Assembly: GCA_018657475.1 (NCBI GenBank)
Contig: JABHXC010000021.1
Coordinates: 1-47,256 of the forward strand
DNA: 47,256 nucleotides
From: Candidatus Woesearchaeota archaeon
Lineage (GTDB): Archaea > Nanobdellota > Nanobdellia > Woesearchaeales > GW2011-AR9
Direction of reading: 5' to 3'
The position numbers and the translations under genes are program-made. Position 1 is the first letter of the stretch. The number at the start of each line of letters is the position of its first letter. This document shows positions 10,051 to 40,434 of the stretch, piece by piece. The notes below the pieces were generated by a model, which saw only the letters and a list, made by a program, of their open reading frames with translations, had not been told where the DNA came from and ran no database searches.

Positions 10051-10130
10051 GGTTTTGTAAACCTCCGTAAACACTTCAGAGAGAACTCTATTTATAAACT
10101 TTTCCAAAAAGAACCACTTTTAAGTAACAA

Positions 10131-23375: not shown

Positions 23376-24128
23376 ATGCATCCAGCTCCACATCATTCAC
23401 ACCATTTAAGATTCTATATAGTTATGGTTACTGTTGTTGTGGGGGTAATTTTAGTTTTATTATTCTTAAACAATGATGGAAATCCATTAAGTATTACTAA
23501 TGCAGTAATTGGCGGAAACAATAATGAAACTATTGTTGAAGAAACAGGTATTACTGGAGCAGTAACTACTTCTACAAAACGTAGTGGGAGTAAAACTGTT
23601 GAGTTTACATTAACTACTGACCAAATTCCAGAAGTCGAGAAAGAAGTAACATTATCTTCTATAATGGTAGATTTTACTGATGCATCTACAATCATAAGTG
23701 TTGGTGGTGATCGTTTAGAAACGTTAAATAATCTTGATGGTGTCAAATTGGTTATTGAAGAGTTTGAAGGTGACTTTTTAGTTGACGATACGAGATTATC
23801 TTTAGATGGTGAAGCTAAACGAATAGAAGTAAGTGGTATAGCTTTATCTCCATCTTCTTCTAAAGACCTCAAAATTTCATTTAAAGATCTAGACTATGAT
23901 CATGTAACTGTTGAAGATATCGAGTTAAGTTCCATTACATTTCCTGCAGGCGATGGCGAATTAACCGCGGAAAGATTGTCTTATTCTTTAGATAGAGATG
24001 AAGCAATAATTCAAGGAATAGTTGGAAATTTAGAAATTGATAGAACTACAACAGAATCAACAAAATTTATTGGAACAGCTAACAAATTAACTATTGATGG
24101 CGATTCATTTGATCTTTCTTTAGAGTAA
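23376..24128 (+). CDS. N-terminally anchored extracellular protein, acidic
   Basis: Track ORF with a His-rich N-terminus, one TM helix, and an acidic Thr/Ser-rich beta-type sequence. Confidence 0.5.
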   Translation: MHPAPHHSHHLRFYIVMVTVVVGVILVLLFLNNDGNPLSITNAVIGGNNNETIVEETGITGAVTTSTKRSGSKTVEFTLTTDQIPEVEKEVTLSSIMVDFTDASTIISVGGDRLETLNNLDGVKLVIEEFEGDFLVDDTRLSLDGEAKRIEVSGIALSPSSSKDLKISFKDLDYDHVTVEDIELSSITFPAGDGELTAERLSYSLDRDEAIIQGIVGNLEIDRTTTESTKFIGTANKLTIDGDSFDLSLE

Positions 24129-24293
24129 ACCTTTTTCTTTCAAAAAATCTTTTTTAGCTTCTCTTCGATATTTTCCAAGTTTATCAATTGGAGAATATTT
24201 TGGTGGGCGGGGTAATATAGTTAATTTTTGACAATGATTTTGTTTTAAAGTATATTGTTTACAAACCGCGCACTGTTTTAATACAGCGGCCAT
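24120..24293 (-). CDS. nop10: H/ACA RNP protein Nop10
   Basis: Not in the ORF track; hand-translated as MAAVLKQCAVCKQYTLKQNHCQKLTILPRPPKYSPIDKLGKYRREAKKDFLKEKGLL*. The CxxC..YTL..C and PP(K/R)(Y/F)SP.D..(G)KYRR pattern is diagnostic. It lies directly downstream of aIF2-alpha, as in many archaea. Confidence 0.8.
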   Translation of the reverse strand: MAAVLKQCAVCKQYTLKQNHCQKLTILPRPPKYSPIDKLGKYRREAKKDFLKEKGLL

Positions 24294-25073
24294 TTATTCA
24301 GATTTCTCCCTGTCAAATGTTGCTGTTGCTAGTTTATCAGTAAATTTTTCAAGAATTTTTAATGTCAATTTCAAATGTTTTTCAGCAGGTTTATAATCCT
24401 CATCCACAATAATCATCTTGAACCTGCCAGCACCTAGATAAAACAAAGTAATTGTGTCAGAAATTTTTTTAATTTCAGATAATGCTAATTTAATATCACC
24501 AACTCCATCTGTTGCATAGGTTTTGAAAGTAATTTCTCCCTGAATTTTAATTTTTTGTGGTTTAAATTTATCTTTAATTGATGAAGTTAATTCTTCAGCT
24601 AATTGCTTTGGTACTCCTAACTTTTCAAGATCAGTTTCATCTGTTGCTACTTCTTGAAAACAAAGGTACAAATGAGAATATTCATTAAAGATACTTTGTT
24701 TAAGTTGTTTATAGATCTCTAAAACTGGTTTGTTTAATCTTTTTGCTACTGCTTTGATTAAACTTTCAGCTTTTAGTTCTTGTTTAATTTCATCTAGTTT
24801 TTCTCTTCGCTGATGTGAATTTACACGTCTTAATGATAAATCAATGTGACCTCTATCCCGATGAATCCGTAGAACTTTACATACTACTTGTCTTCCCACA
24901 CTTACGTGATCTCTTAGATTTCTAATTCTTCCTGGAGCAATTTCAGAAATATGAATCATTCCAGAATCATTATATTCTAACATTTCTACAAAAACAGAGT
25001 TTGGGAGAATTCGAGTTACTTTACATAACAAGATCTCATCTTCTTCGGGTAATCCTTCAATTTTATAGAGCAT
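24294..25073 (-). CDS. eif2a: translation initiation factor aIF2 alpha subunit
   Basis: S1 domain (EILLCKVTRILPNSVFVEMLEYNDSGMIHISEIAPGRIRNLRDHVSVGRQVVCKVLRI..IDLSLRRV) plus a helical and an alpha-beta domain; 259 aa. Confidence 0.9.
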   Translation of the reverse strand: MLYKIEGLPEEDEILLCKVTRILPNSVFVEMLEYNDSGMIHISEIAPGRIRNLRDHVSVGRQVVCKVLRIHRDRGHIDLSLRRVNSHQRREKLDEIKQELKAESLIKAVAKRLNKPVLEIYKQLKQSIFNEYSHLYLCFQEVATDETDLEKLGVPKQLAEELTSSIKDKFKPQKIKIQGEITFKTYATDGVGDIKLALSEIKKISDTITLFYLGAGRFKMIIVDEDYKPAEKHLKLTLKILEKFTDKLATATFDREKSE

Positions 25074-25111
25074 GGTTGAATCAGTGCTGTAAGCTCTTTA
25101 TAAAATTTCGC

Positions 25112-25285
25112 TTATTCTAGAACTTCTAATACCCTTGCAGAAATTTTTGCTTTGCCACCAGTTGGCTGTGCTAATACTTCATCACAGACTAAACAGTGAA
25201 CTTCTTTACTTGCGGTATCAAAAACAATTTGTTCATTTTTACACTTAGCGCAACGAACTTTGATAAATTTGGTTGTTGGTTCCAT
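25112..25285 (-). CDS. rps27e: ribosomal protein S27e (eS27)
   Basis: Not in the ORF track; hand-translated as MEPTTKFIKVRCAKCKNEQIVFDTASKEVHCLVCDEVLAQPTGGKAKISARVLEVLE*. It has a C4 zinc ribbon and a GGAGG about 8 nt upstream. Confidence 0.85.
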   Translation of the reverse strand: MEPTTKFIKVRCAKCKNEQIVFDTASKEVHCLVCDEVLAQPTGGKAKISARVLEVLE

Positions 25286-25310
25286 CAAAAAACCCTCCTA
25301 GTGTTTTTTG

Positions 25311-25342
25311 GGGTCCCAAAAAAACATTTTTTTTTGAGGACC
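25311..25342 (-). other. intercistronic imperfect palindrome between the L44e and S27e genes
   Basis: GGGTCCCAAAAAAACATTTTTTTTTGAGGACC. The GGTCC/GGACC ends plus the A-run/T-run can form a long hairpin in the operon transcript. Confidence 0.3.
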
Positions 25343-25345
25343 ATC

Positions 25346-25654
25346 TTAAACTAACTCCACCCTCTTTGCTCTAATACCTGAAGATTGAGCTGAGGATTTT
25401 TTACAAGTGCTACACATGTAACGTAAATCTGTTTTTTTACTACTTTTTGCTCCGGTTCTTTTCCATTTACCAATGGCAGGTTTAGAATACTTTCCATAAC
25501 CACCAACTCCGCGTGCAAGACCTCTTTTTCTAGCTCGATATTTTGAACCAACTCTTAATGAACTTGCAGTTTTTTTCTTGTTTTGAGTTACTTTTTGTGT
25601 TGTGTGAGTTTTACACTTTTTGCACAATCGCTTCATGGTTTTAGGAATTTTCAT
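25346..25654 (-). CDS. rpl44e: ribosomal protein L44e (eL42)
   Basis: MKIPKTMKRLCKKCKTHTTQKVTQ...GGYGKYSKP...YMCSTCKKS: four-Cys zinc motif and a basic composition typical of L44e. Confidence 0.9.
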   Translation of the reverse strand: MKIPKTMKRLCKKCKTHTTQKVTQNKKKTASSLRVGSKYRARKRGLARGVGGYGKYSKPAIGKWKRTGAKSSKKTDLRYMCSTCKKSSAQSSGIRAKRVELV

Positions 25655-25674
25655 ATTCTAGCTTTGGAGAATGA

Positions 25675-25688
25675 GTTATTTATAAATG
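25675..25688 (-). promoter_or_regulatory. TATA-box promoter of the L44e-S27e-aIF2alpha-Nop10 operon
   Basis: The minus strand reads CATTTATAAATAAC about 25-33 nt upstream of the L44e ATG, so the transcript is leaderless or has a short leader. Confidence 0.5.
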
Positions 25689-25717
25689 TTTGGCAAATAC
25701 AAAGACAGTATACAAAA

Positions 25718-25728
25718 CTTAATAAAAG
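25718..25728 (+). promoter_or_regulatory. TATA-like box for tRNA-Trp
   Basis: CTTAATAAAAG is centred about 29 nt upstream of the tRNA 5' end at 25752. Confidence 0.4.
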
Positions 25729-25751
25729 AGCTTCTTTTTTCCTAGACCAGT

Positions 25752-25904
25752 GGGGACGTAGTATAAATCACTTACTTTAACTGGTAAGATGAGTACATCC
25801 TGGTCAGAATAGGGGCCTCCAGTAATGGAGATTTGAGCTTTATGCAATGACAAATTTTCCCTTGAAGCAAGCCTTAGATCCGAGTTCGAATCTCGGCGTC
25901 CCCA
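25752..25904 (+). tRNA. tRNA-Trp (CCA), 153 nt, with a 47-nt anticodon-loop intron and a ~35-nt insertion in the D arm
   Basis: Perfect acceptor GGGGACG/CGTCCCC with discriminator A, and perfect T arm CCGAG-TTCGAAT-CTCGG. Anticodon stem GGGGC (25812-16)/GCCTT (25871-75) with CTCCAG...A implies a canonical 37/38 intron at 25823-25869. Removing 25763-25797 would give a GTTC/GAAT D stem. The splice boundaries were not verified. Confidence 0.6.
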
Positions 25905-26662
25905 TATTTCTTTATCATTTCTAAATCTTCTTCTGACATTATATTTATTTTAAAGTCATTTACAGTAATATTTCTACTATTTTTTCTTTTCGGGAAACTT
26001 TCCTTTGGACAAATAATTAATCCATTTTTATACTTTAGTGCTTTCATATATCTTATTAGTTGTTTAATTTGTGTTTGAGTAATGTTATTTCTAGCTCTAA
26101 AATCTTTGACTTCAACAACATAATTTATTCCATTTAGTTCTAGTGTACAATCTGCGATCCCATTTTGAGTTCTGACTTTGGATCTAACTTTTCCGAGCCC
26201 ACTTAAAATGTCAACTATTTTTCTTTCATATGCAATACATCTGTTTACAATAATATTTGAAGCAACACCTGAAACGATATTTCTAGGAACATATTCAATA
26301 CCTGCACAGCGGTAAGCATTTTCTATTGTTCTAAATAATCTGGGGAGACAAACGTGAATGTTTTCTTGAATATCTGTAACAGTGCATCCTGGATTATTTT
26401 GGATATACTCAATAATTTCTCTCTTTTGTTGTTGTCTATTTCTTCTACTTAGACTCTTAGAAAGTTTAACGTTTGCTGCCCTATAGGCAGCTCCCATATT
26501 TTTGTATAATCTTTCTACTTTGATCTTTGTATTGTTCTTAATATCTAAATAAGTACAATTTGGATTTTTACGAATGTAGGCTATCAGAATTTTCTTTTTC
26601 TCATTAGGATTATTGTAACAATCTTTTGGAACCCATTCAGAGCACTCTTCTTTAATTCTCAT
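25874..26662 (-). CDS. two-wHTH + PD-(D/E)xK (restriction-endonuclease-fold) nuclease-like protein
   Basis: Preferred start is MRIKEECSEW at 26662 (the track ORF extends to 26746). There are two similar wHTH-like repeats (ILIAYIRKNPNCTYLDIKNN...AAYRAANV and IIEYIQNNPGCTVTDIQENI...NAYRCAGI). The C-terminal block GIADCTLELNGINYVVEVKDF fits a D...ExK nuclease core. The last 9 codons (GDAEIRTRI) are read from the tRNA-Trp 3' half. Confidence 0.5.
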   Translation of the reverse strand: MRIKEECSEWVPKDCYNNPNEKKKILIAYIRKNPNCTYLDIKNNTKIKVERLYKNMGAAYRAANVKLSKSLSRRNRQQQKREIIEYIQNNPGCTVTDIQENIHVCLPRLFRTIENAYRCAGIEYVPRNIVSGVASNIIVNRCIAYERKIVDILSGLGKVRSKVRTQNGIADCTLELNGINYVVEVKDFRARNNITQTQIKQLIRYMKALKYKNGLIICPKESFPKRKNSRNITVNDFKINIMSEEDLEMIKKYGDAEIRTRI

Positions 26663-26736
26663 TTTTATCGCCTCTTTGTTTTGCACTAAATAAAAACAAA
26701 GAGCGTGTAAAAAAAGAGATAACAACTTAATAAACT

Positions 26737-26763
26737 CTATCAGCACTTGTCCAGTGACCAGTG
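26737..26763 (+). repeat. 27-bp repeat, copy 1 (CTATC-N5-TTGTCCAGTGACCAGTG)
   Basis: The exact 17-mer TTGTCCAGTGACCAGTG (26747-26763) recurs reverse-complemented at 36577-36593. The CTATC 5 nt upstream is also shared. The copy is embedded in a local inverted repeat AGCACT...AGTGCT and lies immediately 5' of the TATA box of the permease gene. Confidence 0.85.
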
Positions 26764-26765
26764 CT

Positions 26766-26779
26766 AAAAATATATAAAC
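26766..26779 (+). promoter_or_regulatory. TATA-box promoter of the permease gene
   Basis: AAAAATATATAAAC is centred about 28 nt upstream of the ATG at 26800, implying a leaderless transcript. Confidence 0.5.
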
Positions 26780-26799
26780 ACTAAAGAAGTCATTAATTC

Positions 26800-27990
26800 A
26801 TGTTCAAAAAAGAGGATAGAGAAAAAGTTTACAAAGGCCTTTTCAAAAATAAACTATTAATTGCAGCTACAACTCTGATTGGTACTATTGTTGGTGCTGG
26901 AATTCTGGGTATTCCTTATGTTGTAGCTGAATCCGGTATTGCTATAGGCTTTCTTTGGATAGTATTACTTGGATTAACATTTCTTTTAATGAATCTCTTC
27001 ACGGGAGAAGTAATTTTACGTACAAAAAAACATCACCAATTAACCGGTTATGCTGAGAAGTATCTTGGAAAATGGGGAAAACGTGGTATGACTTTATCCA
27101 TGCTCATATCAATTTATGGTGCATTAACTGCATATCTTATTGGTAGCGGTGCTACTTTACAAGCCATTTTTTCTTGGGGATCTCCTTTGTGGTATTCTCT
27201 AATCTTTTTTGTTATAACTGCAGTAATTGTAGTTAAAGGAATTAAAGCAACAGGTAGGACTGAGTTAATTCTTATTTCTTTACTATTCCTAATTGTTATT
27301 GTTATTGGTTTGTTATCGGTTGCAAATTTCAATGCAGCTAATTTTGTTCCTCATAGTTTTGCAAAATTCTTTGTTCCTTATGGGGTAGTTTTGTTTGCTT
27401 TTATGGGGATGCCAGCCATCCCAGAAATTACACAGGAATTAAAGAGGAATAAAAAACAATTAAAGAAAGCTATTATTATTGGTTCAGTTGCACCAATCAT
27501 TTTATATTTGGTTTTTACAGTAATCATTCTTGCATTAATTGGTGTTGATCAATTTTCTTTGTTAGCACCTAATGAAAGAATAGCAACTATTGCTTTGAGT
27601 GTTTATGGAAATCCAGTTCTTGGAGTGTTAGCAAACATTTTAGCCGTTCTAGCAATGTTTACCTCATTTTTAACGTTGGCATTAGCATTAACTAGTATGT
27701 ACCATTATGATTATAATGTGAAAAAGTGGCTTGCTTTAGTATTAACCCTTAGCCTTCCTTTATTGATAGTTTTGTTTAATATTACTACTTTTCTTATAGT
27801 TCTTGGAATAACTGGTGCATTAGCAGGAGGTTTAGAAGCAATTATTGTACAACTAATGTATTGGAAAGCTAAGACAAAAGGAAACCGTAAACCTGAATAC
27901 AGTTTACCTAAATACAAGCTTTTAGGGATTCTCTTTATTATTCTCTTTATTTTGGGAATATTGATATCATTATACTCTCAATTCTTTTAG
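26800..27990 (+). CDS. amino-acid permease, aromatic amino acid (Mtr/TnaB/TyrP-like) family
   Basis: About 11 TM helices. The N-terminal block LIGTIVGAGILGIPYVVAESG...FLLMNLFTGEVILRT...YAEKYLGKWG resembles the ArAAP/Aa_trans signature region. Confidence 0.7.
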   Translation: MFKKEDREKVYKGLFKNKLLIAATTLIGTIVGAGILGIPYVVAESGIAIGFLWIVLLGLTFLLMNLFTGEVILRTKKHHQLTGYAEKYLGKWGKRGMTLSMLISIYGALTAYLIGSGATLQAIFSWGSPLWYSLIFFVITAVIVVKGIKATGRTELILISLLFLIVIVIGLLSVANFNAANFVPHSFAKFFVPYGVVLFAFMGMPAIPEITQELKRNKKQLKKAIIIGSVAPIILYLVFTVIILALIGVDQFSLLAPNERIATIALSVYGNPVLGVLANILAVLAMFTSFLTLALALTSMYHYDYNVKKWLALVLTLSLPLLIVLFNITTFLIVLGITGALAGGLEAIIVQLMYWKAKTKGNRKPEYSLPKYKLLGILFIILFILGILISLYSQFF

Positions 27991-28076
27991 TTACTACTCT
28001 AGATTAACAAAAGATCCAAAAACTTTATATACCGATGCCTACTGGAGAGTGGTATTAGGGGTGTGTTGAGTATATA

Positions 28077-28970
28077 ATGGATAACGAAATACCAGAAAAT
28101 AAACTAGAGCAGGAATTATTTCTTGAAACCGTTAGCGGTATGGCTAGCGCTTTGAATAATGGTGAAGGTATAAAAATTCCTATAGAAAAAGTAAGAGAAC
28201 TTTCACTTTATCTTTCTAAAACAGTTTCTGAATCACAACGTCAAGATGTTGGTAGTTGGGTGTTAAACAAAGCACCAGCTGTTGCAAAAAGACTTGAATA
28301 TCATCCTCAAAAAGTTGGAGACGCATTAAAAGAACTTGCTAGAGTCCGTAATTTTCTTCCAGTGGAACAAGCAGACGAGTGGGTAGAAGAAGGAATTAAA
28401 CACGGTTCTTCTCCTCTGTATAAAGATTATTTTAAGCTCCAGCATGAAGGCGCAGATAAATATAGTGAATTATTAGAAAACGCAGTTGCAGATCATCACG
28501 AGCAACTAGAAATAACATTAAAAGATCACAAAAGAAATGCAGGTAGATGGAGAAAAGCCACTTTACTTGGCATTTTAGGCTTAACTTCTATAGGATCAGC
28601 AGCTATGTATTTTATGGGCGAGGGTCAACTTTCGTTTGAAGTCGGTGATTTAAATTTAAGCGGAATTGCACAAAGAATGAATCCAGATGAATATGTACAT
28701 CCACTTGAAGCAAATCGTGATGATCCAGAATATTTACGGAATATGACTCAAGATTTTATTAATGAATTTGGTGGAGTTTTAATCACCGTTAACCAAGAAT
28801 TACCTTTAGAGGATAGGTGTCCTGATGTGATGGAGAGATTGTATAACGCAATGACCTCTACTTCACGACCTATTGACATTACAATAAAAGAAGATTACAT
28901 TGACGCAACCAGCCCAATGTGTGATTTAACTGATAGTTCAACCGGAGTGGCTCTTAGAGCAACCCGCTAA
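28077..28970 (+). CDS. single-pass membrane protein (helical cytoplasmic N-domain, Cys-containing external C-domain)
   Basis: Track ORF with a TM segment ATLLGILGLTSIGSAAMYFM at about residue 165. It is the first gene of a same-strand, tightly spaced four-gene cluster. Confidence 0.5.
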   Translation: MDNEIPENKLEQELFLETVSGMASALNNGEGIKIPIEKVRELSLYLSKTVSESQRQDVGSWVLNKAPAVAKRLEYHPQKVGDALKELARVRNFLPVEQADEWVEEGIKHGSSPLYKDYFKLQHEGADKYSELLENAVADHHEQLEITLKDHKRNAGRWRKATLLGILGLTSIGSAAMYFMGEGQLSFEVGDLNLSGIAQRMNPDEYVHPLEANRDDPEYLRNMTQDFINEFGGVLITVNQELPLEDRCPDVMERLYNAMTSTSRPIDITIKEDYIDATSPMCDLTDSSTGVALRATR

Positions 28971-28986
28971 TGGAGGAATAAATAAA

Positions 28987-30594
28987 ATGAAAGGAAAAAT
29001 ATTAAATTCAGCATTATCTTTAGCTTTAGCAGCTACACCTGCTGGTACAGCGTTCGCACAAGAAGGCACTGGAGCAGCAGCTGTAGAACAGACTGTTGAA
29101 GGTGTTGAAATACCTGGATTAACAGATATGTTAAATCCAATAGTAGGTTCTGAAAATCCTGAAGAAGCAGTTGATGAAGTACAACCTACATCTCAATACG
29201 GTGAAATCTTTGGTTTTGGAAACTTTTTTACTAATGTTCCTGAATCAATTACAGAAGCACAAAGATTATTGGCTGAACAACAACCTGTAGGGATTGAAAC
29301 ACCAGTTGTAGCACCAGTTGAAATTACACCAGTTGTAGCACCTGAAGAATTAACTTGTGATTATGTACGTGGTTGTTTAGACACTCCTGTTGTAGAAACA
29401 GCACCTACAAGAACAAGACGACCTTCTAGAACAAGAGCAAGAGCTTTAGAAAATGAAACAGCAATTGAAGATTTGCAAATTTCCTTAGAAGGATTAACTC
29501 TCCATCTTCAATCAACAAATAACACTGATAGATTTTTTACAGAAAGAATCGATAATCTATATCAAACTTTAGAAAATCTACAAACAGAAGTTGTTGAAGG
29601 ACCTTCAGCAGCTCCTACTGTAGAAGCTTTAGAATCAGCAGGCGGATTTCCAACTGCTACTCAATTTAGAGACGAAGCATTAAACACTGCTTACAACCAA
29701 CTCTTTGCACCCGTGCAAGAAGCACATGAAGCATATGTACAAGTTTTCGAAACTGAAATGGCAGAACTTGATGTTTTAGTTGCCGAAGCAAGAGAACAAT
29801 TTCCAATTATTGCAGAATTAGATGAAACTGATTCAGAAGAAGGCTACAGCCAAATTAGTTTAATCTTCAATGCACTTGGCGATGAAGGAAATGAAATTAA
29901 TGAACGTCTAGCAAGAATTACTGCTGCAGAAGAACACAGAGATGTGTTATACCAAAGTGCACTTGATTTAGCTGTTGCTAGCGCAACATCTGGTCCAACT
30001 CCAGATCATCCAAGATGGACTACAGGTGTTTCCTTAGGATACGGATCTGATGGAGTTGTCGTTAGTTTTGGTCAAGATGTAACACTTCCAGGAAGCAACG
30101 TTGTACTTTACACTGGATTCGAAGTCCCTACCGGTCCAGAACCTGAAACTAATCAAACTTCATCTACTGTAGAAGGCTTAGGATCAGCAGGAAGATACAA
30201 TGTAGCTACAGAAGATACAACTAAATCTGAAGAAATAATTAGTCCTTTTGTAACATTCAGAGCTGGATTAGGATACACACTTAGTGATATTGTAGATGTT
30301 CGAGCTGGAGTAAGACTTAATGTTTCAAGCGTTGAAGAAACTGAAACAAATTCGGCTTACAGTCGGCTACAAGACACAGATGGAGAGCTAATTGGAGATG
30401 AACAACGTGTTGTTGATGATGCTGAATTAGTTAGGAGTGAAACTAATTTACAAGTAGCTCCCGAAGTTCGTTTAAATGTCCATACAGATCAAGCTAACAC
30501 TCTTGGTTTTGGAGCAGAATTAGGGTTTTCCTACGATTTTGAAAGCAACGACGTTGAATACCAATTAATCTTTGGCCCAAGAGCCAATTTTTAA
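28987..30594 (+). CDS. secreted acidic protein: Sec signal, coiled-coil middle, C-terminal OMP-like beta-barrel-type domain ending in Phe
   Basis: Signal MKGKILNSALSLALAATPAGTAFA|QEG. The last ~190 aa contain about 8 amphipathic strand-like segments (RWTTGVSLGYG, VVVSFGQDVTL, VVLYTGFEV, FVTFRAGLGYTL, VDVRAGVRLNV, LQVAPEVRLNVH, LGFGAELGFSYDF, VEYQLIFGPRANF). The terminal residue is F. Confidence 0.55.
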   Translation: MKGKILNSALSLALAATPAGTAFAQEGTGAAAVEQTVEGVEIPGLTDMLNPIVGSENPEEAVDEVQPTSQYGEIFGFGNFFTNVPESITEAQRLLAEQQPVGIETPVVAPVEITPVVAPEELTCDYVRGCLDTPVVETAPTRTRRPSRTRARALENETAIEDLQISLEGLTLHLQSTNNTDRFFTERIDNLYQTLENLQTEVVEGPSAAPTVEALESAGGFPTATQFRDEALNTAYNQLFAPVQEAHEAYVQVFETEMAELDVLVAEAREQFPIIAELDETDSEEGYSQISLIFNALGDEGNEINERLARITAAEEHRDVLYQSALDLAVASATSGPTPDHPRWTTGVSLGYGSDGVVVSFGQDVTLPGSNVVLYTGFEVPTGPEPETNQTSSTVEGLGSAGRYNVATEDTTKSEEIISPFVTFRAGLGYTLSDIVDVRAGVRLNVSSVEETETNSAYSRLQDTDGELIGDEQRVVDDAELVRSETNLQVAPEVRLNVHTDQANTLGFGAELGFSYDFESNDVEYQLIFGPRANF

Positions 30595-30641
30595 TTTTTT
30601 TTATTAAATTATCATAATAAACACAACAGGTGAAAAAACAA

Positions 30642-32939
30642 ATGAAACGAGGACAATTTTTTGTAATCTTGGCGTTAATCTTAACGCTGACAACCATGTA
30701 CTCAGCTTTAGCTGACAATCCTATTGCTTTAACCAGCATCTGGACTGAAAACGATGGAACTTCATTGACAGTAGACGCAGGCGAAGAAGCAGAAGTCTAT
30801 GTTTTTGTAACAAGTTTAGAATCATTCAGACTATCTATTGATATCTTAGACGAAGATGGTTTGACTGAATCAATAGTTACCAATTTACCAATCCCTGCAG
30901 GACCTTCCAACAGCAGGTACTGGAATGAATTTGCTATTGACACTACAGAATTAAATGGTGATTATGATGTTGTTGTTCGTGTAACTAATAGTAGAGGAAC
31001 CACAACCGAAACTTTATCTTTAAATGTTATTGGTGAAGATTCAACAGCAGTAAACAATCCCCCTACTATAAGATTAGACCCTTCTCCAGACAGATGGGAT
31101 TCATTATTTGGTTTGAACATTATTCCATTCTTTTTCCACTATGATCGAACAGTAGATGAATCATTTACTATCAACATTGTTGGTGAGGATGTTAATAATG
31201 ATGATGTTACTGTTGAAGCTAACTTTTTCGGTTCAACACCGGCTGGTATGAGTTTAGTTCAAATATCAGAAGGTCGTGTTAGATTAACTGGAACTCCTAC
31301 TGAAACAGGAAAATTCACCGTACAATTTTTAGCAACTGATGAACATGAAGCTTCAGCAGGTTGGGCATTTGATGTAACCATTCACCCTGAAAGTCCTGAA
31401 TTAGAAATTACTTCAGTTGAACCTTTAACAGTAAATGAAGGTAACACTAACGTTATTGTAGCAGAAGTAACTAATGATGTATCTGTTGAAGAATTTACTG
31501 TACAATTACATGATGCAGAAACTGGAGACAGAATCAGAAGTGATATATTTACTTCTTTAGAACAAACTGAAAATCAATTAAGAATTGAAGTATCACCTAA
31601 TTTTAATGCTGTTAATCATGTAACACATACTGAACTAACAAGAGATGTTGTTGCAACAATTACTGCAGATGATCTAACCACCATAACTACAGAATTAACT
31701 GTAGTTGATACAAATCAAAATCCTTTATTTGGTTTAATTGAAGATATTGGTCCTGTAGAACTTAACTCATTAGTTGAGTTTACTGTAACTGCTTATGATA
31801 CAGATCGAGAAGATGTGTTAACTTACAATAAAGTAAGCGGTCCAACAACTCTAACTATCGATTCAGAAACTGGTGAAGTTAGCTGGTTAGCTAGTACAGA
31901 AGGCACTCATACAATCGTACTTCGAGTAGAAGATGGATTTGGTGGTAGTGATAAAATTACTCTTTTACTAACCGTAAACGAACTAGAAAACAGCGCACCT
32001 GTGTTAACTGCAATCGGCTCACAATACGCTGAAGTTGGAGACTTGGTAACTTTTACTGCAACTGCATCCGATGTTGATGGCGATGAATTAACTTTTAGAA
32101 CAGGAGGAGATTACGCGGAACATTTTAACCCATTCGATCATACTTTCACTTGGAGAGTTGAATCACCTGATGTTGGAACGCACACAGTAAGAATAATTGT
32201 ATCTGACGGAGAATTAACCGACTTTGAAGATGTCTTGATCACTGTAAGTGAGTTAGACACTGACAGAGACGGAATTCCTGATAGTGAAGACAATTGTCCT
32301 TTAACACCAAACCCTGATCAAGAAGATACTGACGGTGACGGCCTAGGTGATGCCTGTGATGACTCTCCATTTAACGATGAACCAAGAATTGTCTCTAACC
32401 CACCTACAACTGCACAGGAAGGGGAAGAGTATCAATATCAAGTAATTGTTGTTGATAGTGATTCAATTGATTACTGGGTTAATGGTCCTGAAGGAATGGA
32501 AATTGATGAATCCGGTTTAGTAACTTGGACACCTGAGGATGGTAATGACGCTTTTGTCACTGTGTTTGCTACCGATGGTGAATTTGTTGTAAGTCAGGAT
32601 TATCACATCCAAACAAGAGAAAGTTATAGGAATGTTAAATTCACATCTGTGCGTGTTTCACAAGAAGAAGTTTACCCTGGAGAACCAGTTTATGTTTATG
32701 TAAGCATGGAAAATAATGGTAATCAAGATTTAGATGATTTGCGAATAACTGCAATGATTCCAGAATTAGGTTTACATTACTCTGGTGGCGAATATGATCT
32801 TGAAGAAGGCGACAGCGTGACTGAACAGCTATTTTTGCCAATCCATTACTCTGCTCCGGCAGGAACTTACACTGTTTGGGTTATGGCAAAGAACGGCCAG
32901 TTCCATGACAACGCATTCAGGCAAGTGATTGTAAGATAA
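30642..32939 (+). CDS. large acidic surface adhesin-like protein (cadherin/PKD-like repeats, TSP3 repeat, C-terminal CARDB-like domain)
   Basis: ATG at 30642 follows AGGTGA; the track ORF starts at a GTG at 30630. Signal [24 protein letters not shown] and repeated Ig-like modules (e.g. [24 protein letters not shown]...; [17 protein letters not shown]...). Also a TSP3 repeat [36 protein letters not shown] and a CARDB-like end ([34 protein letters not shown]). Confidence 0.7.
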
Positions 32940-32995
32940 CTCCTCTTAAATGAAGATTATCTGTAATCACTCTTGAATACTAAAAACGGCGAAAC

Positions 32996-33005
32996 CTTTA
33001 TATAG
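32996..33005 (+). promoter_or_regulatory. TATA box (flanked by GAAACC/GGTTTC inverted repeat) for the S-layer-like gene, with long leader and GGAGG
   Basis: CTTTATATAG lies about 75 nt upstream of the ATG at 33079, and GGAGG at 33064-33068. A strong promoter with a long 5' UTR is typical for abundant surface proteins. Confidence 0.4.
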
Positions 33006-33078
33006 GACATTGGTTTCGACCGTCTAAGAAAGAGTCCTACTCAAAAACGACCTTAAAAGGTTTGGAGGAAAAATAAAA

Positions 33079-34383
33079 ATGAAAAAATTGTTGAGCATAA
33101 TGGTTATTTTTAGCCTACTTGCAGTTGCTTTAGTGAGTTCAACCTCATTAGAAAGCGATCTTGCAATTAATATGGTTGAAGTAGATGACCGAGAAGCACA
33201 GCTATACAGTCTTGATGAAGTTGCAGCAGTAGCTTCTATTGATGACTTAAACGCTATTGTAGTTGAAGAAGGCGAAACACTTGAAGTGGAAGTAACCTTA
33301 GAAGCTGAAAGTTCAGCTAAAGATATCCAAGTTGAAGTTGAACTTCGAGGATATGAATATGATGACATTTCTGATCGAAGCGAAGTATCTGATATTGACG
33401 TTTCCCCTGAAGGTACTGGAACCAGTACAGTTGATGTAAACTTAGATTTAGAATTACCTGCTAGGTTAGACAAAGACCGATACTTATTGCGAATTACTGT
33501 AGATGATAAAGATAGCGCACCTGTTATCCGAAACATTGCTTTACAAGTAAAACCTGCAAGACACAGTATCGAAATCGCAGATGTTGCATTCTCCCCAGGA
33601 AACACCGTTCAAGCTGGCCGAGCATTGTTAACAGACGTTTTGTTAGCTAACTTTGGAGACAAAGATGAAAAAGATGTTCGTGTTAATGTAGCAATTCCTG
33701 AATTAGGAGTAAAAGCATTACCTGAAACTGTTAATGTAGTTTCTACAGATGATCACAACCTTGATTACGAAGACGTTACTGGAATGTTCGTACCTATCCC
33801 TGCAAACGCAGCGGCAGGAGAATATCAAGTATTGGTAACTGTTGATTATGATTTGTATAGTGAACAAATTACCGAAGCTTTTACAATTAATGTTGTTGAA
33901 GACGCACGATTCCAAGCAGCAGAAACTTTAGTTTTAGCTGTTGGTCCTGAAATCCAAAGTATCTCACAAGGAACAGTTGGAACTTACGCAGTTGCATTAA
34001 CTAATGCAGGCCACAGTTCTAATGCTTACTTGTTAAGTGTACAAACTGGAGATTGGGCTACCTCAACTCTAAGCGACTCATTAGTTGTTTTAGAACCTGG
34101 AAGAAACCAAGTTGTGTATGTTGATGTAACACCTAGTTCAAACGCAGCACCTGGTGCTCACGCAGCTTCCTTAACCATTCAAACTGGTGACGGAGAAATG
34201 CTTGAAACTATCTCTTTACAAACAAATGTTTTGGAAGGAAACGGTAGAGACAGAGCAGGCTTGCGAAGTGGTCTAGAAATTGCATTAATTGTCTTAGTAG
34301 TATTATTAGTAATCATCGGTTTAATCGTTGGTTTTAGTAGATTACGAAGAGACGACGAAGGCGAAGAACAAACTTACTATTAA
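33079..34383 (+). CDS. acidic cell-surface (S-layer-like) protein with CARDB-type domains and C-terminal TM anchor
   Basis: Sec signal MKKLLSIMVIFSLLAVALVSS. CARDB-like blocks (IADVAFSPGNTVQAGRALLTDVLLANFGDKDEKDVRVNVAIPELG; ...AGEYQVLVTVDYD). C-terminal TM IALIVLVVLLVIIGLIVGF plus a charged tail. Confidence 0.7.
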   Translation: MKKLLSIMVIFSLLAVALVSSTSLESDLAINMVEVDDREAQLYSLDEVAAVASIDDLNAIVVEEGETLEVEVTLEAESSAKDIQVEVELRGYEYDDISDRSEVSDIDVSPEGTGTSTVDVNLDLELPARLDKDRYLLRITVDDKDSAPVIRNIALQVKPARHSIEIADVAFSPGNTVQAGRALLTDVLLANFGDKDEKDVRVNVAIPELGVKALPETVNVVSTDDHNLDYEDVTGMFVPIPANAAAGEYQVLVTVDYDLYSEQITEAFTINVVEDARFQAAETLVLAVGPEIQSISQGTVGTYAVALTNAGHSSNAYLLSVQTGDWATSTLSDSLVVLEPGRNQVVYVDVTPSSNAAPGAHAASLTIQTGDGEMLETISLQTNVLEGNGRDRAGLRSGLEIALIVLVVLLVIIGLIVGFSRLRRDDEGEEQTYY

Positions 34384-34414
34384 TTTAGTAAGCGTTTTTA
34401 ACTTCCCTCCAAAC

Positions 34415-34432
34415 TTTTTTTTTCTTTTTTTT
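34415..34432 (+). terminator. oligo-T tract downstream of the surface-protein cluster
   Basis: TTTTTTTTTCTTTTTTTT lies about 30 nt after the stop at 34383. Archaeal termination commonly uses oligo-T tracts. Confidence 0.4.
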
Positions 34433-34434
34433 CT

Positions 34435-35175
34435 TTAATAATTCTGGAGAGTTTTTATATATTTTTTATTTAATCCACCTAGTCTGAAAATCACAACTTC
34501 ACTAATACCTATTTTTTTCATGGTCTTAAGATCTCTTTCTAAGTTTTCACGTTTAAGTATTGGTTCATCTCCAAGAATTCCTGTTGCTATTGTGCCTAAA
34601 CCAACGTGTAAATCTTTCCCATATTTTCTATGTAAATTCTTAATTTGTTTTAGTAACAACCAACTATACCCTTTATGCATTGAAGTGTAATACATAACAA
34701 TTTTCTTATTTCCATATCTCTTTGGTGAGAATGAAACACTCAAAAAAGTTAAAATCCATTGTGAAAATTTTCCTTTGATAGGATATTCAGCTGTAACAAT
34801 TTTCTTACCATATCGTTTAAAGAATTTCTTAATCCTCACTTTATTTTTGATAAAATAACCTAAACGTAAAAACAACCATGGATGTCTAAAAGGTAATTCT
34901 GCGTCCCACATAACTAATCTTTTTCCTCGTTTAACATCTTGTATAGTTTTTTTAACAGCTTTTGCAGAACTAAACGGGCTTAACCAATAACCTTCTTTCT
35001 TTTCAAGAATTGGCCAATAACCAAATGTAATATTCTTCTTTTTGTATGGCTTTATGAGTTTCTCATATTCTTTAACACTTTTAGCAGCAACATAAACTGT
35101 TGTGGGCCAATCAATTAACTTTAGTTTATCCAGATTTTTCTTTGTAGGAAACTCTTCAAAAAAGCTAATTCGCAT
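34435..35175 (-). CDS. hypothetical Lys-rich protein
   Basis: Track ORF of 246 aa whose composition matches the bulk genome rather than the adjacent acidic cluster. No motif recognised. Confidence 0.5.
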   Translation of the reverse strand: MRISFFEEFPTKKNLDKLKLIDWPTTVYVAAKSVKEYEKLIKPYKKKNITFGYWPILEKKEGYWLSPFSSAKAVKKTIQDVKRGKRLVMWDAELPFRHPWLFLRLGYFIKNKVRIKKFFKRYGKKIVTAEYPIKGKFSQWILTFLSVSFSPKRYGNKKIVMYYTSMHKGYSWLLLKQIKNLHRKYGKDLHVGLGTIATGILGDEPILKRENLERDLKTMKKIGISEVVIFRLGGLNKKYIKTLQNY

Positions 35176-36090: not shown

Positions 36091-36507
36091 TTATTCAGGT
36101 AATTGGCAGCCGGTGATTGTTCCTAATTGTTTAAGTGTAATCTCTCCAGCAATTCTTATTTCCCAATTTGGCCCGCTAGATTTACGGTTTGCGAGTTCAG
36201 CTGGGATTAAAGTATCATCTACAAATTGCCAGGCAGGATAACCTTGAATATCTGCATCTTTACACACTTGTGTTTGTCCTGATCTGTCTGGAAGGGAACA
36301 TTCAATATAATTTACCTCTTCCCAAGCATCTCCAAAAGACTCTTTTTGATCAATACAGTGCGGACACCAAAATGCTCCATACATTACTGCACCTTCATCT
36401 GTTAAACATTGAGCAAATTCTGTATAATCTTTCTTTTCTCCACAACCTGCTAATACTAATGTTGCTATAATAATAAGAATTATACCAAAAAATAAACTCT
36501 TTTTCAT
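36091..36507 (-). CDS. thioredoxin-like lipoprotein (VKOR-associated Trx-like domain type, CPHC active site)
   Basis: Signal with lipobox MKKSLFFGIILIIIATLVLAG|C. The block VMYGAFWCPHCIDQKESFG...VNYIECS...GYPAW resembles the Trx-like domain fused to bacterial VKOR. Confidence 0.7.
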   Translation of the reverse strand: MKKSLFFGIILIIIATLVLAGCGEKKDYTEFAQCLTDEGAVMYGAFWCPHCIDQKESFGDAWEEVNYIECSLPDRSGQTQVCKDADIQGYPAWQFVDDTLIPAELANRKSSGPNWEIRIAGEITLKQLGTITGCQLPE

Positions 36508-40427: not shown

Positions 40428-40434
40428 ATGTTAA
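39049..40434 (+). CDS. LAGLIDADG homing endonuclease (double-motif, free-standing) with N-terminal extension
   Basis: Canonical motifs LIYFVGCSVGDGHI and KYFWRGMFDTDGSA about 100 aa apart. Supporting blocks SLCRFLNFF, KVPLIL, NILKECTDFLKKLSI, FSHVGFAHPRKQ. The last codons (TGG AGA AAA TGT TAA) overlap the ABCE1 ATG. Confidence 0.8.
   Translation: MLNYENDPLLLENQTANFLISKKKDDLLFLDKNKGILNIFSAFVKMNDFVKKDKIVQPLQTTLYAKISKDLADELNKRCNSTKQVRGLISNYTKKRTNCNVDKWFKLKVFPLIFLRIISKDVNELSRWVLEIDYLTDYLNKSRFYVPKKIDDLLDNKLIYFVGCSVGDGHIDKAGKRWILVDGSSDNRRLEQSRDFIYNLASLLKNYIKTYTISEHKTKYVLNVNNKSLCRFLNFFFSLPYGAKKNVTLKVPLILSYSRNNLEKYFWRGMFDTDGSAVQNHSVDLCSSDKNILKECTDFLKKLSINPKVSMIGVRVNNSDLKTFSHVGFAHPRKQIEFLSSLKQGPKFKVSRIIPGMEKKISSDLYKIHKILRVDNSNNRIRINATEIRRSNLTFDDVKEIIKNNFGYEFKITSKNLHYFKSKKVASFLRSRFIYEPAWKAIEEEEEDQLLISWNDVWRKC

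What the first reader, a model, noticed from the sequence alone, without database searches (positions are those of the whole stretch)
28987..30594. Gram-negative-style outer-membrane beta-barrel signature in an archaeal context
Seen in sequence:
- There is a bacterial-looking Sec signal (..LALAATPAGTAFA|QEG).
- A Pro/Val-rich and coiled-coil region follows.
- The C-terminal ~190 residues contain about eight amphipathic strand-like segments with alternating hydrophobic residues.
- The protein ends ...VEYQLIFGPRANF, with a terminal Phe and hydrophobic residues at alternating positions. This is the classical OMP C-terminal beta-signal.

Established knowledge: such barrels are inserted by BAM into bacterial outer membranes, and almost all archaea lack an outer membrane. 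Every clearly assignable informational gene in the window is archaeal.

Inference, three options: a horizontally acquired bacterial OMP-like gene kept for a new role such as a secreted pore or adhesin toward a partner cell; convergent beta-rich architecture; or a contig chimera.
Basis: partly seen in the sequence, partly recalled or inferred. Interest (0 to 1): 0.65.

Follow-up and report, generated by a model that had tools for sequence, protein, structure and literature searches.

The report
OMP-like surface protein in DPANN archaeon
A real, native gene of an uncultivated marine DPANN archaeon encodes a secreted stalk protein whose tail looks like a bacterial outer-membrane beta-barrel, and related archaea keep similar fast-evolving genes at the same spot, some with a textbook outer-membrane ending, although the fold could not be confirmed.

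Summary
The ORF (28987-30594, +, 535 aa) is real. It has a signal peptide, an acidic Pro/Val-rich linker, a helical stalk and a ~190-aa all-beta C-terminal domain ending in Phe.

It is neither a chimera nor a recent transfer. The identical protein lies between the same archaeal genes in four independent assemblies. Read depth is even across it, and its GC3 (0.13) matches the host.

By sequence it is an orphan. Pfam, NCBIfam and PDB give no match. Two billion-scale protein searches found only itself.

Two AlphaFold runs failed (pLDDT 38-39), so a closed barrel is neither shown nor refuted.

Synteny gave the main new result. In 13 further related Woesearchaeota/Nanoarchaeota loci, the slot between an amino-acid permease and a giant Ig/PKD adhesin holds a signal-peptide protein with a Gly-rich beta tail.
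- Three of nine non-target subfamilies end like classical OMPs (...VGLELEF, ...VGLQLDF, ...INIGCEF).
- One (L029) scores 27.6 bits against Pfam OMP_b-brl (cut-off 28.7).
- The closest counterpart (L008) does not end in Phe.
- In the target a Gly-Pro breaks the final strand.

Best reading (~0.45): an OMP-type beta-barrel surface protein. The membrane it would occupy is unknown. A soluble beta domain remains a serious rival.

The parts
26800..27990 (+). Trp/Tyr-type amino-acid permease; conserved synteny anchor upstream of the variable slot
   Evidence: Pfam Trp_Tyr_perm E=1.6e-33. Relatives of it flag the syntenic loci.
28077..28970 (+). 297-aa single-pass membrane protein: ~160-aa cytoplasmic N-terminal part, TM segment around aa 163-181, ~110-aa external part with a Cys pair (C248, C282). 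Probably co-transcribed with the target
   Evidence: No Pfam or NCBIfam match. Best hydrophobic window is LLGILGLTSIGSAAMYFMG at aa 163. Only 16 bp separate it from the target. L008 has a 670-aa single-pass protein at the same position, also with a C-terminal Cys pair, but BLASTP shows no significant similarity.
28972..28976 (+). GGAGG Shine-Dalgarno-like motif 10 nt upstream of the target's ATG, as expected for an operon-internal gene
   Evidence: Read directly from the sequence.
28987..29058 (+). Signal peptide, aa 1-24 (MKGKILNSALSLALAATPAGTAFA); predicted cleavage AFA|QEG
   Evidence: Sequence reading and hydropathy. The L008 counterpart has ...TTYA|QDG, and other slot proteins have ...ALA|QE...ALA|DE...TSA|QE. 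No dedicated signal-peptide predictor was available.
29059..29457 (+). Acidic linker, aa 25-157, containing the TPVVAP-type Pro/Val repeats (aa 100-143), a Cys pair (C124, C130) and an Arg-rich patch (TRTRRPSRTRARA)
   Evidence: pI 4.17.
29458..29985 (+). Helical stalk, aa 158-333: three predicted helices at 158-204, 224-271 and 284-333. The first has clear heptad periodicity
   Evidence: AlphaFold secondary structure at low confidence. Heptad power p=0.0015 for 158-204, 0.10 for 284-333, not significant for 224-271.
30013..30591 (+). All-beta C-terminal domain, aa 343-535 (20.8 kDa, pI 4.1). It has at least 8 long amphipathic strands with one purely hydrophobic face and one Gly/polar/charged face. 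Tight 2-5-residue turns alternate with two long acidic loops (aa ~380-416 and ~447-482)
   Evidence: Strand positions agree between two AlphaFold runs. Dyad-pattern statistics against shuffles and controls. Period-2 power 59.5. The 3D fold was not obtained.
30553..30591 (+). Last strand plus tail: VEYQLIF-GPRANF. Aromatic-ended strand, Gly-Pro break, terminal Phe
   Evidence: Compare L053 ...EFYNSKMGPRTTVGLELEF and L029 ...KMTPRKYRGTNVFINIGCEF.
30595..30602 (+). T8 run directly after the stop codon; a likely archaeal oligo-T terminator
   Evidence: Read directly from the sequence. Its function is inferred.
30630..32939 (+). 769-aa secreted Ig-like/PKD/thrombospondin-type-3 adhesin-like protein; conserved downstream partner of the slot
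   Evidence: Pfam He_PIG 5.9e-18, Big_9, TSP_3, PKD. Relatives lie downstream of the slot in 12 loci.
33079..34383 (+). 434-aa S-layer-type protein with a C-terminal TM anchor and charged tail; conserved end of the cluster
   Evidence: NCBIfam PACE-CTERM-PROT putative S-layer protein E=1e-17, below its cut-off. Pfam NPCBM_assoc. C-terminal anchor. Strong relatives in 7 loci.

Best explanation
The gene is a native, protein-coding gene of an uncultivated marine DPANN archaeon of the Woesearchaeota/Nanoarchaeota type. It encodes a 55-kDa, very acidic secreted cell-surface protein.

Architecture: a Sec signal peptide is cleaved after AFA24. The mature protein has a flexible acidic Pro/Val-rich linker, a ~175-residue helical (partly coiled-coil) stalk, and a ~190-residue C-terminal beta domain.

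Context: it is the local occupant of a positionally conserved, sequence-hypervariable gene slot. In this archaeal lineage that slot lies between an amino-acid permease and a giant Ig/PKD adhesin followed by an S-layer-type protein.

Most likely mechanism (inferred): the beta domain folds into an OMP-type up-and-down beta-barrel of about 8-10 strands that anchors or embeds the protein in a hydrophobic layer. The stalk and linker project from it. Together with the co-transcribed single-pass membrane protein and the neighbouring adhesin, it forms part of the envelope or host-contact apparatus.

Shown: gene reality, native origin, modular layout, conserved slot, and OMP-like features of several slot proteins.

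Inferred: the barrel fold of the target, its membrane insertion, and its function. The membrane it would sit in (a second envelope membrane of the archaeon, or a partner cell's membrane) is unknown.
For: Native and real:
- Four independent assemblies have identical protein and neighbours.
- Depth is even and contigs bridge the junctions.
- GC3 is 0.134, and the gene shares the acidic low-Lys profile of all secreted proteins in the window.
- Population SNPs are 5 synonymous against 2 non-synonymous, and both non-synonymous changes fall in the signal peptide or a predicted loop.

Beta-domain pattern:
- Alternation exceeds shuffles (p=0.001).
- Long alternating runs occur at 1.5 per 100 aa. OmpX has 1.35 and OmpA 1.7. 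Streptavidin and GFP have 0. The Ig/PKD neighbour has 0.27 and 28 pooled window proteins 0.28.
- Connections alternate as expected for OMP topology. All even-numbered connections are tight turns, and the two long acidic loops fall on the same side (sequence reading; strand positions).

Family context:
- 14 loci carry a signal-peptide plus Gly-rich beta-tail protein in the same slot.
- The loci are archaeal.
- C-termini include ...TTVGLELEF...SVGLQLDF...SGGLEVRF...VFINIGCEF and ...VNLGYQHKY.
- The strict beta-signal pattern occurs in 3 of 9 non-target subfamilies against a 2.8% background (p=0.0017).
- The L029 beta domain hits Pfam OMP_b-brl at E=4e-6 (27.6 bits, cut-off 28.7), aligned to the very end of both profile and protein. 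It also echoes Phenol_MetA_deg, Autotransporter, DUF4421 and TIGR04565 OMP_myx_plus.
- L008, the closest counterpart, gives OMP_b-brl as its only hit (E=0.14).

Precedent: double membranes are reported in some archaea, including DPANN ARMAN (PMC4243693). A possible OMP relative in DPANN Altiarchaeales is mentioned in PMC12228718.
Against: - The target itself has no detectable similarity to any OMP family or solved OMP.
- It has no demonstrable homology to the other slot proteins: phmmer E about 0.01 at best, hhalign 5.6% or less, and jackhmmer does not expand.
- AlphaFold gave no usable model (pLDDT 39 and 38), and the fold search was meaningless.
- The pattern metric is imperfect. The neighbouring S-layer-type beta-sandwich protein reaches 1.06 long runs per 100 aa.
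- Terminal Phe is not conserved in L008 or in four other subfamilies. The target has Gly-Pro five to six residues from its end.
- No outer membrane or BAM machinery is known for this lineage. The window's other surface proteins use ordinary C-terminal TM anchors.
- No RNA evidence was found.
Confidence: 0.45

Rival explanations
1. Soluble beta-rich surface domain. The C-terminal domain is a water-soluble beta-sandwich, jelly-roll or small soluble barrel with a hydrophobic core. It docks the stalk protein onto the S-layer, the co-encoded membrane protein or a host ligand. The OMP-like pattern and terminal Phe are convergent or coincidental.
For: - The target matches no OMP family.
- Alternating hydrophobicity alone also marks soluble beta proteins. 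The Ig/PKD neighbour also exceeds its shuffles, and the S-layer-type protein has 1.06 long runs per 100 aa.
- Terminal Phe has a 7.5% background and is absent in L008.
- The organism's other surface proteins are typical archaeal ones.
- Cultivated DPANN are generally described with an S-layer (title and abstract of PMC11329633).
Against: - Strands are unusually long and Gly-rich on the polar face, as in OmpX and OmpA. Streptavidin and GFP controls score 0.
- Slot counterparts carry classical OMP termini and a near-threshold OMP_b-brl match.
- No soluble beta-fold family appears among the stronger Pfam echoes of the 14 domains.
Confidence: 0.35
2. Secreted membrane-attacking barrel. The protein is released and its beta domain inserts into the membrane of a partner or host cell, forming a pore or anchor for nutrient or lipid uptake by the symbiont.
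For: - It has a signal peptide but no membrane anchor of its own.
- It lies in a cluster with a giant adhesin.
- It evolves extremely fast and is lineage-specific, as expected for host-interface proteins.
- DPANN depend on host lipids (PMC11035636 abstract), and surface proteins diversify in Nanoarchaeota symbionts (PMC6142677 title and abstract).
Against: - There is no similarity to any known pore-forming toxin family.
- Known beta-pore-forming toxins contribute one or two hairpins per subunit rather than a whole barrel (my own knowledge).
- The host of this lineage is unknown.
- Nothing here tests localisation.
Confidence: 0.1
3. Assembly chimera or recent bacterial transfer. The segment belongs to a Gram-negative bacterium and was joined to archaeal DNA by misassembly, or it was acquired very recently.
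For: Total GC of the gene (0.383) is above the window mean of about 0.32. It also has an OMP-like look.
Against: - Four independent assemblies have the same junctions.
- Contigs from four runs span the junctions at even depth.
- GC3 is 0.134, as low as or lower than neighbouring archaeal genes.
- The same slot is occupied in 13 other archaeal loci.
- No bacterial homologue exists among 1.84 billion representative proteins.
Confidence: 0.02
4. Non-functional or spurious ORF. It is an orphan reading frame without a protein product.
For: It is an orphan in two very large searches. No metatranscriptome holds it.
Against: - It is a 535-codon open frame in AT-rich DNA with a GGAGG ribosome-binding motif and a T8 terminator.
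- It has a modular protein-like layout with significant heptad and dyad periodicities.
- SNPs are 5 synonymous against 2 non-synonymous.
- The slot is conserved across genomes.
Confidence: 0.03

Closest known systems
Small bacterial outer-membrane beta-barrels (Pfam OMP_b-brl PF13505; OmpX/OmpA-TM type)
   Same: - Sec signal peptide.
- About 190 residues with at least 8 long amphipathic strands, one hydrophobic face and one Gly/polar face.
- Tight turns alternate with long loops, and the last strand ends in an aromatic residue.
- The density of long alternating runs equals that of OmpX and OmpA.
- A syntenic counterpart (L029) nearly reaches the family threshold.
   Different: - The target has no significant sequence match.
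- The host is an archaeon with no known outer membrane or BAM.
- A Gly-Pro break lies before the terminal Phe.
- The barrel is C-terminal to a long stalk.
- The loops are extremely acidic.
Stalk-plus-barrel envelope proteins of diderm bacteria: trimeric autotransporter adhesins (YadA type) and OmpM/SlpA-type SLH-coiled-coil-barrel tethers (comparison from my own knowledge)
   Same: The module order matches: signal peptide, N-terminal region, coiled-coil or helical stalk, C-terminal beta domain. The gene also lies next to a large adhesin.
   Different: - There is no YadA anchor, Autotransporter or SLH domain hit in the target.
- Only one helix shows clear heptad periodicity.
- The beta domain is too long for a 4-strand TAA anchor and too short for a large porin-type barrel.
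Archaeal S-layer stalk or anchor proteins (SlaB of Sulfolobales, tetrabrachion) (comparison from my own knowledge)
   Same: It is a secreted archaeal envelope protein that combines beta domains with a coiled-coil stalk, and it is encoded next to an S-layer-type protein.
   Different: Those proteins are anchored by a C-terminal TM helix. The target has none, and its domain order is reversed, with the beta domain last.
Putative OMP relative reported in DPANN Candidatus Altiarchaeales (PopA superfamily note, PMC12228718)
   Same: It is a bacterial-type outer-membrane barrel suspected in a DPANN archaeon.
   Different: - PopA-type proteins are 16-stranded plugged barrels found by structure search.
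- Altiarchaeales are known to be double-membraned.
- No relationship to the present proteins was tested or seen.

Membership tests
Bacterial OMP beta-barrel (Pfam OMP_b-brl PF13505 and related outer-membrane barrel families) | Significant match to a family profile | tested here: not met
   The target has no Pfam or NCBIfam family at E<=10 or E<=1, whether whole or as the beta domain alone, and no PDB sequence match. Only counterparts echo the family: L029 at 27.6 bits against a cut-off of 28.7, L008 at E=0.14.
Bacterial OMP beta-barrel (Pfam OMP_b-brl PF13505 and related outer-membrane barrel families) | Cleavable N-terminal Sec signal peptide | tested here: met
   Basic n-region, Ala-rich h-region and AFA|Q site. 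The top hydrophobic window is at the N-terminus. This rests on sequence reading, since no dedicated predictor was available.
Bacterial OMP beta-barrel (Pfam OMP_b-brl PF13505 and related outer-membrane barrel families) | Even number (at least 8) of membrane-spanning antiparallel strands closing into a barrel with an outward hydrophobic belt | tested here: inconclusive
   The strand pattern is OMP-like and significant. Both AlphaFold models were unusable (pLDDT 39 and 38), and the fold search was meaningless.
Bacterial OMP beta-barrel (Pfam OMP_b-brl PF13505 and related outer-membrane barrel families) | C-terminal beta-signal: terminal aromatic residue with hydrophobic residues at positions 3, 5, 7, 9 from the end | tested here: inconclusive
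   The target has F1, A3, P5, F7, L9, with Gly at position 6, so it fails the strict test at position 5. The signal is met in counterparts L053/L055, L040/L039 and L029 and absent in L008, L056, L037, L030/L034 and L032/L036.
Bacterial OMP beta-barrel (Pfam OMP_b-brl PF13505 and related outer-membrane barrel families) | Resides in an outer membrane and is inserted by BAM/Omp85 | not testable with these tools
   Only about 47 kb of the genome is in hand and it contains no Omp85/POTRA gene. The rest of the genome and the cell envelope could not be examined.
Type V secretion (autotransporter / trimeric autotransporter adhesin) | Autotransporter beta-domain (PF03797) or YadA-type C-terminal anchor | tested here: not met
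   The target has no hit. Only L029 shows a faint Autotransporter echo (E=0.004, 17.4 bits against a cut-off of 26).
OmpM/SlpA-type SLH-coiled-coil-barrel tether | N-terminal SLH domain | tested here: not met
   No Pfam family of any kind was found in aa 1-335 at E<=10.
Archaeal C-terminally anchored surface proteins (SlaB-like, PGF-CTERM-like) | C-terminal hydrophobic TM helix with or without a sorting motif | tested here: not met
   There is no hydrophobic stretch after the signal peptide. Neighbours 9022-10107 and 33079-34383 do have such anchors.
Permease-adjacent 'slot' proteins of Woesearchaeota/Nanoarchaeota-type DPANN (group defined here) | Position between the Trp/Tyr-type permease and the Ig/PKD adhesin plus S-layer-type gene | tested here: met
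   This holds for the window and for L008, L029, L030, L032, L034, L035/L036, L037, L039, L040, L041, L053 and L056. L055 was found by sequence similarity to L053 only.
Permease-adjacent 'slot' proteins of Woesearchaeota/Nanoarchaeota-type DPANN (group defined here) | Ala/Gly-rich signal peptide plus Gly-rich (10-16%) beta-strand C-terminal domain without a TM anchor | tested here: met
   Table; sequences.
Permease-adjacent 'slot' proteins of Woesearchaeota/Nanoarchaeota-type DPANN (group defined here) | Demonstrable sequence homology among members | tested here: not met
   Only local links exist: L053-L029 at 1.5e-5, L056-L037 at 4e-6, L041-L036/L037 at about 1e-3. The target reaches E about 0.01 at best and hhalign 5.6% or less.

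The most novel reading that the evidence does not exclude
A lineage of marine and groundwater DPANN archaea (Woesearchaeota/Nanoarchaeota type) encodes genuine OMP-type transmembrane beta-barrel proteins at a conserved, hypervariable locus. This would imply one of two things. Either these archaea have a second, outer lipid layer populated by beta-barrels, assembled without a known BAM machine. Or they plant barrels into the membrane of a partner cell as part of their symbiotic contact apparatus.
Probability: 0.3. Interest if true: 0.9.

Novelty: new variant of a known kind. Interest (0 to 1): 0.68.

Why it matters
To my knowledge, transmembrane beta-barrels of the OMP type are a hallmark of bacterial outer membranes and of organelles. 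No archaeal one has been characterised, and the Ignicoccus outer-membrane pore is a different kind of protein.

A conserved locus in DPANN archaea encoding signal-peptide proteins with OMP-like barrels, some with the classical C-terminal insertion signal, would bear on three questions:
- whether some DPANN are diderm;
- how a barrel could be assembled without BAM;
- how these lipid-dependent symbionts contact hosts.

It also gives concrete, short, expressible domains (about 190-230 aa) from 14 loci for direct testing.

If the domain instead turns out to be a soluble beta fold, the finding reduces to an ordinary fast-evolving archaeal surface protein.

Tried and rejected
- Word-indexed homology searches with the whole protein, its beta domain and the L008 counterpart found only self hits.
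- An exhaustive phmmer search against 1.84 billion representatives found only a 99-aa fragment of the same protein and one hit (P0003) that is spurious. It is a repeat protein, with pairwise E about 1.7.
- Pfam, NCBIfam and PDB sequence searches of the target were all empty.
- AlphaFold on the full length and on the beta domain alone gave pLDDT 39 and 38. I make no 3D claim from either.
- Foldseek on the poor model gave TM-scores of 0.2 or less and was discarded.
- No paralogue exists in the window.
- Syntenic loci found via aIF2alpha: only L008 keeps the slot.
- jackhmmer and hhalign failed to join the subfamilies or link the target. Both tests are underpowered with 1-2 sequences per group.
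- The simple alternation count does not separate OMPs from Ig-like proteins. Run length separates better, but the S-layer-type protein is an exception.
- No metatranscriptome contains the gene.
- tRNA scans of the syntenic loci found nothing.
- I considered PGF-CTERM/archaeosortase-type anchoring and rejected it, because there is no C-terminal hydrophobic helix.
- I noted that the target's GPRANF tail might be a truncated version of the ...GPR + last strand seen in L053 and L029. This rests on a 3-residue motif only and I do not claim it.
Full report
**1. The observation**

The ORF at 28987-30594 (+) exists and encodes 535 aa. Its features are as follows.
- The N-terminus MKGKILNSALSLALAATPAGTAFA|QEG has the layout of a Sec signal peptide. 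The most hydrophobic window of the whole protein lies there, and no other TM-like stretch exists.
- Residues 100-143 carry TPVVAP-type Pro/Val repeats.
- AlphaFold's secondary structure, at low confidence, gives helices at 158-204, 224-271 and 284-333, and strands from 346 to 531.
- Only helix 158-204 has significant heptad periodicity (p=0.0015). So 'coiled coil' is only partly confirmed.
- The C-terminal 193 residues have strong period-2 hydrophobicity.
- The alternating pattern exceeds composition-preserving shuffles (p=0.001; long runs p=0.007).
- The protein ends VEYQLIFGPRANF. The alternating register runs to the terminal Phe (positions 13,11,9,7,5,3,1 = V,Y,L,F,P,A,F), but a Gly-Pro sits at positions 6 and 5.
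- The mature protein is 55.5 kDa with pI 4.05 and only 0.6% Lys.

**2. Context, and the chimera and transfer options**

The window is archaeal. It encodes aIF5B with EFTU_D4, Trm1, RtcA, ABCE1/RLI, aIF2alpha, L44e and archaeal RqcH. The closest aIF2alpha relatives (57-69% identity) are Woesearchaeota/Nanoarchaeota MAGs.

A chimera is excluded as far as these data allow.
- The identical protein sits in the same gene order in four independent assemblies (JGI 3300072015, NCBI GCA_018667585.1, ENA ERZ4200979 and ERZ27237583).
- The gene differs among them at four synonymous sites only.
- Contigs from four marine metagenome runs cover 24000-35000 at an even 3-9x. Separate contigs bridge each gene junction.

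Recent transfer is excluded.
- GC3 is 0.134, as low as or lower than the rest of the window.
- The higher total GC comes from first and second codon positions, that is, from amino-acid composition.
- All signal-peptide proteins of the window share that composition (pI 4-5, low Lys), whereas cytoplasmic proteins are basic.

Population SNPs are 5 synonymous against 2 non-synonymous: G3R in the signal peptide and D463N in a predicted loop. A GGAGG motif lies 10 nt upstream. Only 16 bp separate the gene from the preceding 297-aa single-pass membrane protein gene. A T8 run follows the stop codon. This suggests a two-gene operon.

**3. Homology**

The protein is an orphan by sequence.
- Pfam and NCBIfam gave nothing, whether for the whole protein or its halves.
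- PDB sequence searches gave nothing.
- The word-indexed search of 5.8 billion clusters returned only the protein itself.
- The exhaustive phmmer search of 1.84 billion representatives returned a fragment of itself and one spurious repeat hit.
- The window holds no paralogue.

**4. Structure**

Two single-sequence AlphaFold runs failed: full length at pLDDT 39 and aa 336-535 at pLDDT 38. Foldseek on the second model gave TM-scores of 0.2 or less.

At the pattern level I compared the domain with positive controls (OmpX and OmpA-TM, verified against the PDB) and with negative controls. Long alternating runs of at least 9 residues, per 100 aa:

| Protein | Runs per 100 aa |
|---|---|
| Target beta domain | 1.5 |
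| L008 counterpart | 1.7 |
| OmpX | 1.35 |
| OmpA-TM | 1.7 |
| Streptavidin | 0 |
| GFP | 0 |
| Ig/PKD neighbour (769 aa) | 0.27 |
| 28 pooled window proteins | 0.28 |
| S-layer-type neighbour (434 aa) | 1.06 |

The metric leans OMP-like but is not decisive, because the S-layer-type neighbour also scores high.

Reading the strands directly, one face is almost purely hydrophobic with aromatics near the strand ends, and the other is Gly/Ser/Thr/charged. The connections alternate as in OMPs: all even-numbered connections are 2-5-residue turns, and the two long acidic loops (about aa 380-416 and 447-482) fall on the same side.

**5. The new evidence: a conserved slot**

L008, a marine Nanoarchaeota MAG, keeps the order permease, single-pass membrane protein, X, 769-like adhesin. 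X is a 429-aa orphan with the same layout as the target:
- a signal peptide ending ...TTYA|QDG;
- an acidic region with a Cys pair;
- a coiled coil;
- a Gly-rich beta domain.

X ends ...VVSFGYTSSNRDE, with no terminal Phe. BLASTP between X and the target is not significant.

Using the permease as a probe in metagenomes, I found the order permease, variable slot, 769-like adhesin, 434-like S-layer-type protein in a dozen further loci. In each, the gene immediately upstream of the adhesin encodes an Ala/Gly-rich signal peptide and a beta-rich C-terminal domain with 10-16% Gly. Their C-termini are:

| Locus | C-terminus |
|---|---|
| L053, L055 | ...TTVGLELEF |
| L040 | ...SVGLQLDF |
| L039 | ...SGGLEVRF |
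| L029 | ...VFINIGCEF |
| L041 | ...VNLGYQHKY |
| L030 | LQVGYQF-DREDREAKK |
| L034 | LNVGYEF-GGEGKEAPK |
| L032, L036 | INLIYLF-GGDERK |
| L056 | IKLGY-CPVEKEE |
| L037 | NANFGY-CPKTE |

These loci are archaeal. L053 has aIF5B and Trm1, L029 has Trm1 and RtcA, and L040 has RtcA and a LAGLIDADG protein. All have 32-39% GC.

The enrichment in OMP-type endings is moderate. The background for a terminal Phe is 7.5%. Excluding the target, 3 of 9 subfamilies end in Phe (p=0.025). For the stricter pattern (aromatic end plus hydrophobic at positions 3 and 5) the background is 2.8%, giving p=0.0017 for 3 of 9.

The L029 beta domain gives the strongest link to bacterial OMPs.
- Pfam OMP_b-brl: E=4e-6, 27.6 bits against a cut-off of 28.7, aligned to the last position of both profile and protein.
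- Phenol_MetA_deg: E=0.0024.
- Autotransporter beta-domain: E=0.004.
- DUF4421: E=0.0043.
- TIGR04565 OMP_myx_plus: E=0.0043.

The only Pfam echo for L008 is OMP_b-brl at E=0.14. No soluble beta-fold family appears among the stronger echoes of the 14 domains.

**6. Limits**

- The subfamilies are barely connected by sequence: L053-L029 at 1.5e-5, L056-L037 at 4e-6, and L041-L036/L037 at about 1e-3.
- The target reaches only E about 0.01 and hhalign 5.6% or less.
- Its place in this set therefore rests on gene position and architecture, not on demonstrated homology.
- The upstream membrane-protein gene is not a constant partner. It is present in the window, L008, L030/L034 and L032/L036, and absent in L029, L039, L040, L041 and L053.
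- No RNA run holds the gene.
- Nothing here shows an outer membrane or a BAM-like machine in this lineage.
- The window's other surface proteins use ordinary archaeal C-terminal TM anchors.

**7. Interpretation**

The best-supported reading (about 0.45) is a native, secreted, fast-evolving envelope or host-contact protein. Its C-terminal domain is an OMP-type beta-barrel, carried on a helical stalk, and it works with the neighbouring adhesin. The site of insertion is unknown.

The main rival (about 0.35) is a soluble beta-rich docking domain with a convergent pattern. A secreted barrel that inserts into a partner cell is a sub-variant (about 0.1). Chimera, recent transfer and spurious ORF together come to about 0.05.

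Literature:
- Two membranes have been reported for a few archaea, including the DPANN ARMAN cells (PMC4243693).
- A possible OMP relative in DPANN Altiarchaeales has been mentioned in passing (PMC12228718).
- I found no report of such proteins in Woesearchaeota.

**8. Verdict**

The chimera option is wrong. The homology-based claim (bacterial OMP) is unproven for the target but unexpectedly strengthened by its syntenic counterparts.

I rate this as a new variant of a known kind. It is of high interest if the barrel is confirmed. It becomes an ordinary surface protein if the domain proves soluble.

Noticed in passing
whole window (table): The proteome splits sharply in two. Proteins with signal peptides or external domains are very acidic (pI 4-5, Lys 0.6-6%), while cytoplasmic proteins are basic (pI 9-10, Lys 8-15%). 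The raised GC of 28-34 kb comes entirely from this amino-acid bias (GC1 and GC2), not from codon usage.
   Followed up: partly
window 30630-32939 and 33079-34383; L026-L056: The 769-aa Ig-like/PKD/TSP3 adhesin and the 434-aa S-layer-type protein (NCBIfam PACE-CTERM-PROT, E=1e-17, below its cut-off) form a conserved pair downstream of the variable slot in many related archaeal loci. In L026 the S-layer-type gene directly follows the permease, with no slot gene and no adhesin.
   Followed up: partly
window 9022-10107 (-): Another surface protein has a signal or anchor sequence, thrombospondin-type-3 repeats (MtsC-like echo, E=1e-15), an SMC-like coiled coil and a C-terminal TM anchor. It has 27% Asp+Glu.
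   Followed up: no
window 44206-47256 (+), runs off the window end: A very large ORF (more than 1017 aa) carries Laminin_G_3/concanavalin-like lectin and pentaxin-like domains, so it is probably another giant surface protein. The Ser/Thr-rich ORF 44445-45125 on the opposite strand is probably spurious.
   Followed up: partly
window 39049-40434 (+) and 12507-13676 (+); L040 3491-4762 (-): Free-standing LAGLIDADG-domain proteins lie next to informational genes. One overlaps the start of ABCE1 by 16 nt, and one sits beside aIF5B. A similar gene lies beside RtcA in L040. Whether they are homing endonucleases or domesticated proteins is unknown.
   Followed up: no
window 36091-36507 (-): A small protein has a lipobox-like signal (LVLAGC|GEK) and a CxxC-type motif (FWCPH), so it looks like a thioredoxin-like lipoprotein. 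L037's slot protein (LAPMGC|A) and L056's 268-aa slot neighbour (MLFASC|T) also have lipobox-like signals.
   Followed up: no
window 26569-26935 and 27303-27669 (inside the permease gene): In three of four runs, contig depth jumps to 54-129x over two short segments of the permease gene, against a 2-9x background. Many of those contigs continue into unrelated sequence. Abundant other organisms probably share near-identical permease segments.
   Followed up: no
window 33805-33928: One run (X1) has a contig that skips 122 bases inside the S-layer-type gene, so there may be a length variant in the population.
   Followed up: no
L053 11700-11766, L029 12020-12095, window 30571-30591: A short shared motif precedes the C-terminus: KMGPR in L053/L055, KMTPR in L029 and FGPR in the target. 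In L053 and L029 a full final strand follows it, whereas in the target only ANF follows. The target may have lost most of its last strand.
   Followed up: partly
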